Source of the DNA: Escherichia coli | GTDB taxonomy: Bacteria; Pseudomonadota; Gammaproteobacteria; Enterobacterales; Enterobacteriaceae | Reading direction: 5' to 3' (one strand) | Length of the DNA: 27,334 nucleotides | Assembly: GCF_003334315.1 (NCBI RefSeq) | Contig: NZ_QOWR01000063.1 | In this document: piece by piece, positions 3,001-6,000 of the stretch | Position numbering within the stretch: the stretch's first letter is position 1 | Layout of the letters: each line of letters opens with the position of its first letter | Position numbers: made by a program

Positions 3001-6000
3001 GATAACCAATCTCAAACAGGGGGCTTTAAATAATCTTGCAATGACAACTCCGGCTTATAATTTATCTCCTGTATTCAATCTGAATCCTACATTTGAAGTG
3101 GTAACGGAGGTTCCGCTTACTATTAATTCTGACACATCCAGATTAAGCGATTATGTGGATTTTACAGCGAGAGCAAGTCGGGATAGCTTCTTGAAATCAT
3201 TAACATTAACCAGCTTATCAGGACAATCTAACGGCGGGTAATTCCCGCCATAACATTACAAGGAAATTATTATTATGGCGACCGCCGGGATTTTAACCAT
3301 ACGTGCAGCAAATACTCCAGAACAACACGTTCAGGCTGTTTACAAAGCAGAACAAGATATAAACTCTACAAAAAATACAAATAACTCTGCCTCTACTGTG
3401 AAAGGGGGGAATGGATTTGCTATTGTTACCAGTGGGCTGGCATCTTCTGGAAACGATGTTTATGAAAATTATATGGCACTGGCCTTTGACAGTGTAGATG
3501 ATGTGAACGTGAGACGTTCGGCAGATGTTACAAGCTACCCCGTAGAAAATGGTGCTACTGTATCGGATCACGTTCAAATTAAAAACAATAAGTTTTCTCT
3601 TAAAGGAAGGATCACTGAAACACCGATTAAAAGCGATCCTGGCTTGTTAAAGAGTGCAGGGGTGAACGGGAACAGAAGATCATTAGCTATCGACTACCTG
3701 AATCAGATTATGGACAGTAGACAGCCTTTTCTTCTTGTTACAGAAAATAAAACTTTTGAGAACGTTGTTTTAACAGGCATCGAATACACAGAAGAGGCAA
3801 GCGAATCCCTAGTATTTGATCTTAGCTTTGAGCAAATAAGATTAGTGTCTTATGGCACAGTAAACACTGTAGCTATCAAAACACAGCCATCTAAGAACAT
3901 TGGGGCTAATATGAAAAAACGTGTTAACACTGAAAAATCAAGTAGTGAAGGTGAAGACACTATAACTCCTGCCTTTAAACAGGAATAGCCGTAAACGCCT
4001 CTAAAACGCTCTGTAACGATGTAATTATAAAAGAGGCTACCAATCTATGTTGAAGCCTCTTTATTGCGTCTATGGCGTTGTTTTACGCCTTAAATTTGAT
4101 TTTTTATTGATTGATAAGCCTTTCTCTATTTCAGGGTAGCGTAGAAGCTCAATATAGTTTTTAAGCTCTACTGGAGAAGCTGCATTCTTGCTATATGTGC
4201 GGAATGTTTCTGTATTGCCGCGTGTATGGCCCAGGAGAAGGGCGATCCTGTCTTCTGGAATTTGATTTCGATCAAGAAGCTGTGCTACTCCGTGTCTCAG
4301 AGAATGAAACACCTTCCTTTCTGTTCCCTTTTCCCCTAAAGCCTTTCGTTTAGCCCTGGTAAATCTCTGCGTGTGCCACGTGGAACGTTTACCATCAGCA
4401 CGCTCTGTAATGCTGGCGTGATAGAACAAAAAGCCATTATGAGGCTTTTCACGCAGCGACAACACCAACGGAGTGATAAGGCTATGTACAGGCACAACAC
4501 GCGCCGCAGCTTTCGTTTTTCCCTGTGTGATTTCAAAACACAGCACACCTTCGATCTCTTTCACATCGTCTATTGTGAGACTTGCTATCTCATTGATCCG
4601 CATCCCTGTATAAGCACCGATAAGACACAAAGCTATCATTTCTTTGTTTTCTGCTGAATTACCGGAAAATACTTGCAACACTTGCAATAGCTCTTTGTTA
4701 GAAAATGCCTCGTAGCTCTCTCTACTTTGTGCCACATCAAGCCTATGCCCTCGCCAGGGGGAGAGCGCCCTTTCTGGCGCATCGTGGTAACGTGATGAAG
4801 CTAACTCCCATAGCTGGGCCATTGGGCTGATATAATTTGCAATTGATTGTTGTGAAAGGGTTTTTTGCATGTGTTCAATCCAGCCTGTAACAGTGGTGCG
4901 GCTCACATCTTGCAATGCAATATCAGGCTTTTTACGGTAGGAGAGAAACATCTCTACCGCTTTTCTTGCCTTAGCTAAAGTGGCTGGCTTCTTCTTCGTG
5001 CTGTTAATTGTCAGGTAGATTTCAAGAATTTTAAGCAATGACGGACACGAAGACGCTGTATCTTGCATTCTGGTAGCTGTTTTGGCGTATTTAGCCTTAC
5101 TGCGTAACAGTTCCAGCGTGTTCTCTATTGTGCTGTTTACAGGGGCGACACTCTCCCGTAAGCAATGGTATTCATCTGCAATCTGATCACGCTTTCTACG
5201 TGCAACACGAAGGTTACTTGTATGCAGACTCCTGACAAACGTCCTTTTTCCTTCAAAAAAGGGCTGCATATACACAGGCAGCGTGATCCTCAAATAGTAG
5301 TTACCGTAAGAATCACAGATTATGTATTGATTGGGCTTGTATCTCATAAACTCCCCGGCTAAAGTGTCGGAGCGTTTGTAATGTGAAAATTGATTGTAAC
5401 GCATAGAAAATGATAATTTTTTCTATAAGATTCAATCAATTAGTAATGGTCGTAGGTGATGGCATTAACACGAGATTAATCGAGTGTTTTACTCCTATTA
5501 TCGGCACCATTAAAATCAAAGAGTTACCCCATATTTAAATACACCACGTTTCCTCCTGTGCCGTATTTGTGCCATTGTAACCTTGGCAATTCATCAAAAT
5601 ACTGTTCTGACATCAGGCAGTGCAGGTGCAGACATTTAAGCCAATTGCTGCCGCCATTCTTTGACGTAGTCAATCAGGGCGCGGAGCTTTGGTGCAATAT
5701 TGCGACGCTGTGGGAAATACAGATAGAAGCCCGGAAATTGTGGAAGAAAGTCATCAAGCAGCGATACAAGCTTACCGCTTTCAATATATGGCCTGAAAGT
5801 TTCCTGAGTGGCAATTGTTATTCCTCCGCCGGCAAGAGCCAGCCTCAACATCAGACGCAGATCATTAGTCGTAATCTGCGGTTCAATCGCAAGGTCGAAA
5901 GTTCTCCCGTTTTCTTCAAATGGCCAGCGATAAGGCGCAACCTCCGGGGACTGACGCCAGCCGATACACTTATGGGTATTTCCCCCGGAGGCGAGAAAGC

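What the first reader, a model, noticed from the sequence alone, without database searches (positions are those of the whole stretch)
5446..5509. tRNA-Thr 3' fragment marks the boundary of the acquired element
A 19-nt exact 3' end of tRNA-Thr (ending ..GGCACCA) lies 87 bp upstream of the integrase start, preceded by a second short T-stem match separated by unrelated sequence. This is the signature of an attachment-site repeat left by integration into a tRNA-Thr gene. It implies that everything from coordinate 1 to about 5509 is horizontally acquired and that 5510 onward is backbone.
Basis: partly seen in the sequence, partly recalled or inferred. Interest (0 to 1): 0.4.

Follow-up and report, generated by a model that had tools for sequence, protein, structure and literature searches.

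The report
Island boundary repeat at tRNA-Thr gene
The 19-base piece of tRNA-Thr is the right-hand attachment-site scar (attR) of a ~13-kb phage-like island inserted into the E. coli thrW gene, an ordinary and well-understood kind of boundary marker.

Summary
Confirmed, and ordinary. Window 5491-5509 (ACTCCTATTATCGGCACCA) is the exact 3' end of E. coli thrW, tRNA-Thr(CGU). With T5510 it forms a 20-nt direct repeat.

- **Occupied sites:** three near-identical or related E. coli genomes have an intact thrW about 13 kb to the left. A tyrosine integrase sits just inside the fragment.
- **Empty sites:** 1642 of 5426 complete E. coli genomes have proA-thrW directly joined to the sequence that follows 5509 here.
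- **Boundary:** 5491-5510 is attR. The island lies to its left and the backbone (yagP'-paoDCBA) to its right.
- **Not CP4-6:** the K-12 counterpart (ptwF-intF) has a 49-nt fragment and an unrelated integrase.

The second match (GGTCGTAGGT, 5448-5457) is not chance. A Citrobacter relative has a 14-nt version, and sister elements at leuX carry split or contiguous leuX pieces in the same arm.

Corrections:
- The integrase probably starts at 5347, so the gap to the 19-mer is 144 bp, not 87.
- Window 1-77 is an IS2 end fused to the island's capsid gene, so the left end in this strain is unknown.

The island cargo is the more interesting part. It holds a capsid-like gene plus homologues of the tape-measure and tail-tube-initiator genes of phi92-like virulent phages.

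The parts
5491..5510 (+). attR core. It comprises the 19-nt exact 3' end of thrW (nt 58-76: last 3 nt of the T-loop, 3' T-stem, 3' acceptor strand, CCA) plus one further shared T. Together these form a 20-nt direct repeat with the intact thrW end at attL.
   Evidence: (D5)
5448..5457 (+). Second thrW-derived piece, GGTCGTAGGT (thrW nt 45-54: variable loop and 5' T-stem). It lies in the element-derived (P) arm.
   Evidence: The Citrobacter relative has TGCGAAGGTCGTAG (nt 39-52) at the same place.
5458..5490 (+). 33-nt spacer that stands where thrW nt 55-57 would be. It contains the imperfect palindrome AACACGAGATTAATCGAGTGTT (5467-5488). Presumed protein-binding site next to the core (inferred).
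   Evidence: I2. The palindrome is 19/22 conserved in Citrobacter L017 while its flanks differ. Weak single-strand fold.
5388..5441 (.). Inverted repeat with 23-nt arms between the integrase start and the tRNA pieces. It overlaps a promoter-like site on the minus strand that could drive the integrase gene.
   Evidence: (I1)
4070..5347 (-). Tyrosine integrase of 425 aa (the longest ORF runs to 5404, 444 aa). Domains: DUF6538, SAM-like and Phage_integrase. It is transcribed away from the tRNA fragment.
78..5490 (.). Part of the thrW island held in the window. Genes: capsid-like 77-1105, tape-measure-like 1409-3241, tail-tube-initiator/Dit-like 3275-3988, and the integrase.
1..77 (.). Terminal 77 nt of an IS2 copy. 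Its last base supplies the A of the capsid-like gene's ATG.
5511..5974 (.). Chromosomal backbone directly downstream of thrW in uninserted strains, including the N-terminally truncated LysR-family pseudogene (yagP') at 5636-5974 on the minus strand.

Best explanation
Window 5491-5510 is the right attachment site (attR) of a ~13-kb integrative, phage-like element.

**Mechanism.** The element inserted into the 3' end of the chromosomal thrW gene by tyrosine-integrase site-specific recombination. Its attP carried a copy of the last 19-20 nt of thrW. After the exchange, the tRNA gene at the left junction (attL) is completed by the element's copy. The displaced 3' end remains at the right junction, next to the integrase gene. 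Left of 5491 is element DNA and right of 5510 is ancestral backbone.

**Where the exchange occurs.** The crossover must lie within the 20-nt identity. This follows from the sequences. The exact position is not mapped.

**The upstream 10-mer.** It is a relic in the element's P arm. That arm is a decayed, mosaic copy of the target tRNA, interrupted by a conserved palindrome that probably binds a recombination or regulatory protein (inferred).

**Target switching.** Related integrases use leuX. Its last 9 nt (TCGGCACCA) are identical to those of thrW, which suggests how the family moved between the two targets (inferred).
For: **Shown**
- Exact 19/20-nt match to thrW.
- Intact thrW in the same orientation, 13.08 kb to the left in NZ_AP025205.2, and at the left end of the island (12.7-13.9 kb) in GPEC548 and E3. 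Integrase and island genes lie between the two repeats.
- Empty site in strain F3 and in 1642 of 5426 complete genomes. Its downstream sequence is identical to window 5510 onward.
- The same P arm, core and backbone junction occurs in 285 genomes.
- The integrase has Phage_integrase, SAM-like and DUF6538 domains.
- GC step at the boundary.
- Sister elements with 55-66% identical integrases and the same gene order sit at leuX, with the same intact-gene-plus-fragment geometry.
- In several relatives a second, P4-type integrase island follows the fragment, as expected for tandem use of the same site.

**Relic arm**
- Left pieces always match the element's own target tRNA and are collinear with it: thrW nt 45-54 (window) and nt 39-52 (Citrobacter); leuX nt 29-38, 25-38 and 25-37 plus 6-14.
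- Other relatives are contiguous or nearly so: leuX nt 21-85, 22-85, or 4-19 plus 20-85.
Against: - The source genome's own left end is not visible, because the window starts inside an IS2 at the capsid gene. Presence of thrW and attL in this strain is therefore inferred from relatives.
- No excised attP junction was found in IMG/VR or in metagenome contigs. Current mobility is unproven.
- The crossover position, the protein that binds the palindrome, and the origin of the split arm are all inferred.
- Two alignments of the arm disagree. One reads the spacer as an insertion. The other places the arm in register with the tRNA (23/57 identity, reached by 0.9% of shuffles).
Confidence: 0.92

Rival explanations
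1. The fragment is the K-12-type CP4-6 attR (ptwF), so the DNA to the left is a CP4-6 remnant.
For: It has the same chromosomal position and the same divergent integrase-fragment geometry as ptwF-intF in K-12 (PMC2951348).
Against: K-12 carries a contiguous 49-nt thrW fragment and a different P arm. IntF aligns with this integrase only over part of the catalytic domain, at 24% identity. The neighbouring genes also differ: yagN/yagM there, capsid/tape-measure/Dit-like genes here.
Confidence: 0.02
2. The 19-mer is a chance match or a decayed local duplicate of a tRNA gene, unrelated to integration.
For: None beyond its short length.
Against: 0.01 matches are expected by chance. It sits exactly where similarity to uninserted strains begins (query position 112). 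It forms a direct repeat with the intact gene in the same orientation, with an integrase between the two copies.
Confidence: 0.01
3. The upstream 10-mer GGTCGTAGGT is a coincidence, or a family-wide arm motif (CGTAGGT also occurs in the arm of the Raoultella and E. kobei leuX elements), and is not thrW-derived.
For: - It is only 10 nt long.
- A full-family alignment places it opposite non-tRNA palindromic sequence in the leuX-type arms.
- CGTAGGT is present in L021 and L024.
- thrW and leuX both contain CGTAG.
Against: - Reached by 0.2% of shuffles.
- The Citrobacter thrW-type element, whose integrase is 56% identical, has a 14-nt match offset to nt 39-52. The union of the two pieces is 16 nt of thrW.
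- leuX-type relatives carry 10-16-nt pieces of their own target tRNA in the same arm.
Confidence: 0.15
4. The split fragment is the remains of two nested or tandem integrations at thrW. An earlier element was almost wholly deleted, leaving about 33 nt between its two junctions.
For: The break points fall in the T-loop (thrW type) and the anticodon loop (leuX type). These are the two usual crossover places in tRNA genes (PMC4383910, Table 1). Tandem arrays are common at these sites.
Against: - The two pieces do not overlap as a duplicated core would. Instead 3-5 nt of tRNA are missing.
- The spacer is conserved and palindromic across genera.
- The whole arm lies on the element side of the crossover, so it travels with the element.
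Confidence: 0.1

Closest known systems
Displaced tDNA fragment marking a genomic island end (the Islander principle; Williams 2002, Hudson et al. 2015, PMC4383910)
   Same: - A 3' tRNA-gene fragment in the same orientation as the regenerated gene.
- An integrase gene inside the interval.
- An island of plausible length.
- An empty site in other strains.
   Different: Nothing essential. The identity block is short (19-20 nt) and starts in the T-loop. The element arm holds an extra, separated tRNA piece.
ptwF-intF junction of the CP4-6 cryptic prophage in E. coli K-12 (PMC2951348 names the ptwF-intF pair; the CP4-6 name is from my own knowledge)
   Same: The same chromosomal junction (thrW fragment, then the yagP pseudogene and paoD). 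The same divergent orientation of integrase and fragment.
   Different: The K-12 fragment is 49 nt and contiguous, reaching back into the anticodon stem. Its integrase is unrelated beyond the catalytic fold (24% over 136 aa). The island content is different.
T-loop / T-stem class attachment sites, e.g. mycobacteriophage Ms6 in tRNA-Ala (PMC1762012) and Islander 'J' sites (PMC4383910)
   Same: The identity with the tRNA begins in the T-loop and runs to the 3' end.
   Different: The crossover was not mapped here. leuX-type relatives share 43-65 nt with their tRNA, so the family's real crossover may lie nearer the 3' end, in the shared TCGGCACCA.
Phage satellites (PICI, capsid-forming PICI, P4-like)
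   Same: - Size of about 12-13 kb.
- An integrase at one end.
- A replication initiator with iterons.
- A few structural-gene homologues and no terminase or portal detected.
- Integration in a tRNA gene.
   Different: The gene set matches none of the described types. It is a lambda-E-like capsid gene plus tape-measure and tail-tube-initiator homologues of large virulent myoviruses, with a serine invertase. No AlpA or primase was found. Helper dependence is untested.

Membership tests
tRNA-gene attachment site (attR) of an integrase-borne island | The fragment is identical to the 3' end of a tRNA gene. | tested here: met
   19/19 nt equal thrW nt 58-76, with anticodon CGT in the intact gene.
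tRNA-gene attachment site (attR) of an integrase-borne island | The intact cognate tRNA gene lies in the same orientation at the other island end, forming a direct repeat. | tested here: met
   Met in NZ_AP025205.2 (13,079-bp spacing), GPEC548 and E3. Not visible for the source strain itself, because the window begins in an IS2.
tRNA-gene attachment site (attR) of an integrase-borne island | A tyrosine integrase gene lies inside the interval, next to one end. | tested here: met
   Pfam Phage_integrase 6.9e-17, plus SAM-like and DUF6538 domains. The gene starts 144 bp from the core.
tRNA-gene attachment site (attR) of an integrase-borne island | An uninterrupted (empty) site exists in related genomes. 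| tested here: met
   Strain F3 and 1642 of 5426 complete E. coli genomes.
tRNA-gene attachment site (attR) of an integrase-borne island | Excision regenerates attP and attB (a circular junction is observed). | tested here: inconclusive
   Exact attP-junction patterns gave 0 hits in IMG/VR and in metagenome contigs. Absence from assemblies does not show inactivity.
CP4-6 prophage (K-12 ptwF-intF) | An IntF-type integrase and the 49-nt thrW fragment. | tested here: not met
   24% identity over 136 aa only. The fragment here is 19 nt against 49 nt in K-12.
T-loop class crossover (Williams class II / Islander site J) | Strand exchange occurs within the T-loop or T-stem. | not testable with these tools
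   The identity block starts at the last 3 nt of the T-loop, which is consistent. The exchange point needs experimental mapping.
Phage satellite (PICI / cfPICI / P4-like) | The hallmark gene set (int, AlpA-type regulator, pri-rep; for cfPICI a full capsid and packaging set; for P4 the sid/psu/delta genes) together with helper-dependent transfer. | tested here: inconclusive
   PHROGs found an integrase, an invertase, an O-like replication initiator, a head-protein-like gene, and tape-measure and tail genes. No portal, terminase, protease, AlpA or primase was found, though small ORFs are uncharacterised. Helper dependence cannot be tested here.

The most novel reading that the evidence does not exclude
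The ~12-13 kb element bounded by this fragment belongs to an undescribed family spread through Enterobacteriaceae (E. coli, Klebsiella, Citrobacter, Enterobacter, Raoultella, Scandinavium).

**Possible role.** It may parasitise, or interfere with the assembly of, phi92-like / Phapecoctavirus virulent myoviruses. It carries its own lambda-E-like capsid gene. It also carries homologues of those phages' tape-measure protein and tail-tube initiator.

**Possible history of its attachment site.** Its integrases may have switched between thrW and leuX through the shared 3' end TCGGCACCA. That would explain the mosaic pseudo-tRNA left in the attachment-site arm.
Probability: 0.3. Interest if true: 0.6.

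Novelty: new member of a known kind. Interest (0 to 1): 0.2.

Why it matters
For the finding itself, the result fixes the island/backbone boundary to the base (5490/5491 to 5510). It also shows that the island is not the K-12 CP4-6 element, even though it occupies the same site. That is useful for annotation but unsurprising, since thrW is a recognised integration hotspot (PMC7545054). About 70% of complete E. coli genomes lack the contiguous empty configuration.

Two small points go beyond routine:
- The element-side arm keeps collinear scraps of the target tRNA across genera. This is a readable record of how attachment sites evolve and switch targets.
- The cargo pairs a capsid gene with tail-assembly homologues of large virulent phages. 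If this is a satellite or an assembly-interference island, it would be a new type for E. coli.

Tried and rejected
- **tRNA detection.** ARAGORN on the whole window and an Rfam scan of 5200-5800 found no tRNA; the three Rfam matches were far below threshold and spurious.
- **Folding.** The 64-nt region and the spacers gave no significant structure, with z-scores from -0.2 to -2.0. A tRNA-like or hairpin RNA role was therefore dropped.
- **CP4-6 identity.** Rejected.
- **Excised attP junction.** Searches in IMG/VR and in metagenome contigs returned 0 hits.
- **Integrase relatives in viral contigs.** The search for related loci failed twice because the service was busy. I used the search for homologous proteins plus look-up of encoding contigs instead.
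- **Defence and naming libraries.** PADLOC returned nothing for the island proteins. NCBIfam gave only sub-cutoff recombinase matches for the integrase and invertase and nothing for the cargo.
- **Literature.** Searches for a satellite linked to Phapecoctavirus or with this gene set found nothing relevant. Williams 2002 (PMC100330) is not held.
- I first recalled the tRNA-Leu fragment of the relatives as leuZ. Annotation and ARAGORN show it is the CAA tRNA-Leu gene next to ahr, which I take to be leuX.
- **Spacer as a simple insertion.** I could not settle this. A family-wide alignment is equally compatible with in-register divergence.

Full report
**What is in the sequence**

The window is E. 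coli chromosome. From 5510 rightward it runs through the truncated LysR pseudogene (yagP'), paoDCBA, yagU, ykgJ, the ecp operon and fdeC.

At 5491-5509 the + strand reads ACTCCTATTATCGGCACCA. This is identical to nt 58-76 of the 76-nt tRNA-Thr(CGU) gene next to proA (thrW) in related genomes. Those positions are the last three bases of the T-loop, the 3' T-stem, the 3' acceptor strand and the CCA. The 19-mer occurs once in the window even with three mismatches allowed, against 0.01 expected. ARAGORN finds no tRNA gene in the window, and an Rfam scan of 5200-5800 finds no tRNA there.

It occurs once against 0.02 expected. A match of this length to the remainder of thrW in the 86 nt upstream of the core arose in 0.2% of shuffles.

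**Is it an attachment-site repeat?**

Yes.

1. **The intact gene and the repeat.**
   - NZ_AP025205.2 is 99.7-99.96% identical to window 3984-24862, apart from an IS1 copy that the window lacks.
   - In that genome the intact thrW lies 13,079 bp to the left, in the same orientation.
   - The repeat is 20 nt exact: the 19-mer plus the following T.
   - Between the two copies lie a serine invertase, a replication-initiator-like gene, small ORFs, a capsid-like gene, two tail-gene homologues and a tyrosine integrase.
   - The two genomes with the closest version of the window's own island segment (93-95% over 77-5600) have the same layout.
2. **The empty site.**
   - Strain F3 has proA-thrW followed directly by the sequence found after 5509 here.
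   - A junction-spanning query shows this contiguous arrangement in 1642 of 5426 complete E. coli genomes.
   - The present P arm, core and backbone junction is found in 285 genomes.
3. **Composition.** GC steps from 0.39-0.45 left of about 5500 to about 0.60 in the pao genes.

- **Integrase start.** The integrase ORF can be read from ATG 5404 (444 aa), which gives the quoted 87 bp. RefSeq annotation of identical genes, and the start shared by every homologue examined, put the start at 5347 (425 aa). That is 144 bp from the core.
- **Left edge of the window.** Window 1-77 is not island DNA. It is the terminal 77 nt of an IS2, and its last base supplies the A of the capsid-like gene's ATG. In this strain the island is at least interrupted and possibly truncated. 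Its left end cannot be seen.
- **A flawed refutation criterion.** The criterion that the 19-mer should not occur here in strains with no insertion cannot work. In such strains the 19-mer is here by necessity, as the end of thrW.

**How it works**

This is the standard mechanism for islands in tRNA genes. The element's attP carries a copy of the tRNA's 3' end. The integrase exchanges strands inside the identity. The gene at attL is completed by the element's copy, and the displaced 3' end is left at attR (principle as stated in PMC4383910).

- **Shown here:** the direct repeat, the intact gene at attL, and the integrase, which has Phage_integrase, SAM-like and DUF6538 domains.
- **Follows from the sequences:** the crossover lies within 5491-5510. 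To the left, attR differs from the tRNA. To the right, attL differs from the backbone.
- **Inferred:** the exact exchange point, and whether the element is still active.

Exact searches for the predicted attP junction found nothing in IMG/VR or in metagenome contigs.

Between the integrase start and the core there is a 23-nt-arm inverted repeat (5388-5441). It overlaps a minus-strand promoter-like site that could serve the integrase gene. There is also an imperfect 22-nt palindrome (5467-5488) right next to the core.

**Not CP4-6**

K-12 has the well-known counterpart at the same junction, ptwF next to intF (the pair is named in PMC2951348). There the fragment is 49 nt and contiguous, reaching back into the anticodon stem, and the arm differs. 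IntF aligns with this integrase only over 136 aa of the catalytic domain, at 24% identity.

Other thrW islands leave yet other scars, for example TTCCTATTATCG-CACCA with one G missing. thrW is a recognised integration hotspot (PMC7545054).

**The second match is a relic, not noise**

Integrase homologues at 55-66% identity lie in elements with the same gene order in E. coli, Klebsiella, Citrobacter, Enterobacter, Raoultella and Scandinavium.

The Citrobacter element also uses thrW. Its arm has three parts:
- TGCGAAGGTCGTAG (thrW nt 39-52, 14 nt);
- a 35-nt spacer whose palindrome is 19/22 identical to the window's;
- ACTCCTATTATCG-CACCA.

The two thrW-type arms thus match thrW over different, overlapping stretches, whose union is 16 nt. 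This argues for common descent from thrW sequence.

The other relatives use the CAA tRNA-Leu gene next to ahr, which I take to be leuX. The intact gene is at one end and the fragment is beside the integrase. Their arms carry leuX pieces in collinear order:

| Relative(s) | leuX pieces in the arm |
|---|---|
| E. coli L016, Klebsiella L011 | nt 29-38 or nt 25-38, then about 31 nt containing a different conserved palindrome, then nt 43-85 |
| Enterobacter L019 | nt 6-14, nt 25-37, then nt 43-85 |
| K. aerogenes L025 | nt 4-19, then 45 nt, then nt 20-85 |
| Raoultella L021, E. kobei L024, Scandinavium L023 | contiguous, nt 21-85 or nt 22-85 |

So the element-side arm in this family is a decayed, mosaic copy of the target tRNA.

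Whether the spacer is an insertion into a once-contiguous fragment or in-register divergence is unresolved. A family alignment supports the in-register view. The window's arm is 23/57 identical to thrW in register, a level reached by 0.9% of shuffles.

thrW and leuX share their last 9 nt, TCGGCACCA. The P' arms at attL are also homologous between the two types. This suggests, but does not prove, that recognition or exchange centres on that shared end, and that this allowed target switching.

In several relatives a P4-type integrase island follows the fragment directly. That is the usual tandem use of such sites.

**Comparison with what is known, and novelty**

The feature meets every sequence-level criterion of a displaced tDNA fragment marking an island end. 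Only excision is unproven. The kind is fully known, and this is a further member with a short, T-loop-starting identity block. The split relic in the arm is a minor variation that I have not seen described. I searched only a limited literature set.

**Outside the finding: the island cargo**

The island's cargo is the more unusual part (see the items noticed in passing).
- The 237-aa protein is 56-63% identical to the 'tail tube initiator' of large virulent E. coli myoviruses annotated as Phapecoctavirus or Justusliebigvirus relatives.
- The 610-aa protein is 32-37% identical to the tape-measure proteins of the same phage group, which includes phi92.
- The capsid-like gene belongs to the lambda-E type (Pfam Phage_cap_E in relatives).
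- No terminase or portal was detected.
- PADLOC returned nothing for these proteins, and NCBIfam named none of the cargo.
- No paper describing such an element was found.

**Verdict**

The feature is ordinary biology, so the finding scores low interest. There is a moderate chance that the element it bounds is an undescribed satellite-like family.

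Noticed in passing
window 1409-3241 and 3275-3988: These two island genes are homologues of adjacent tail genes of large (~130-150 kb) virulent E. coli myoviruses (phi92, Phapecoctavirus, Justusliebigvirus). The 610-aa protein matches their tape-measure protein at 32-37% aa identity. The 237-aa protein matches their tail tube initiator at 56-63% aa identity. There are patches of about 71% nucleotide identity. PADLOC and NCBIfam returned nothing for these proteins. This may be a satellite or an assembly-interference island.
   Followed up: partly
window 77-1105: A capsid-like gene of 342 aa. It gives a weak PHROG major-head-protein hit, relatives carry Pfam Phage_cap_E, and the nearest phage matches are Pseudomonas myovirus head proteins at 22-24% identity. 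No portal, protease or terminase was detected anywhere in the ~13-kb island of related genomes.
   Followed up: partly
window 1-77: The window opens inside the terminal inverted repeat of an IS2. Its last base forms the A of the capsid-like gene's start codon, so the island's upstream part is displaced or deleted in this strain.
   Followed up: partly
L004 5431-7824 (also L001 8925-10710); outside the window: A stretch of about 2 kb with no ORF over 92 aa, lying between the serine invertase and the replication-initiator-like gene. It is packed with several families of short repeats: ACAGAATTCTGT-containing 23-25-nt units (7 copies), CCTAGGAA..TTCC units (3 copies) and GGTAG.TCA..GTGA.CTA units (4 copies). 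It looks like an origin or regulatory region.
   Followed up: partly
window 15060-17584: The fimbrial usher gene ecpC is split into two overlapping ORFs (405 and 489 aa). The near-identical RefSeq genome annotates it as frameshifted.
   Followed up: no
window 26882-27334: An IS1 copy begins 18 bp after the end of fdeC (22608-26864). The near-identical genome NZ_AP025205.2 instead has an IS1 between ecpR and ykgL, which the window lacks at about 19650-19660.
   Followed up: no
window 5636-5974 (minus strand): The LysR-family gene next to thrW is N-terminally truncated here, in K-12 and in the uninserted strain F3. It is full length (299 aa) in O157:H7. The truncation therefore is not caused by this island and may be the scar of an older event at the hotspot.
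   Followed up: partly
L006 2508-2524, L007 and L008 equivalents; L017 ~1354-1371: The attR scars of other thrW islands, and of the Citrobacter relative, read ...CCTATTATCG-CACCA. They lack one G of the thrW 3' end. A Klebsiella leuX scar lacks 3 nt. Either the displaced fragments decay, or these elements carry a variant core.
   Followed up: no
L016 16497-31373; L012, L014, L021, L023, L024 just beyond the tRNA fragment: Tandem arrays occur at the relatives' leuX sites. The fragment that ends the capsid/tape-measure element is followed either by a P4-type integrase island or by a defence-gene cluster (HNH nuclease, AAA protein, restriction enzymes, TIR protein, type I R-M).
   Followed up: no
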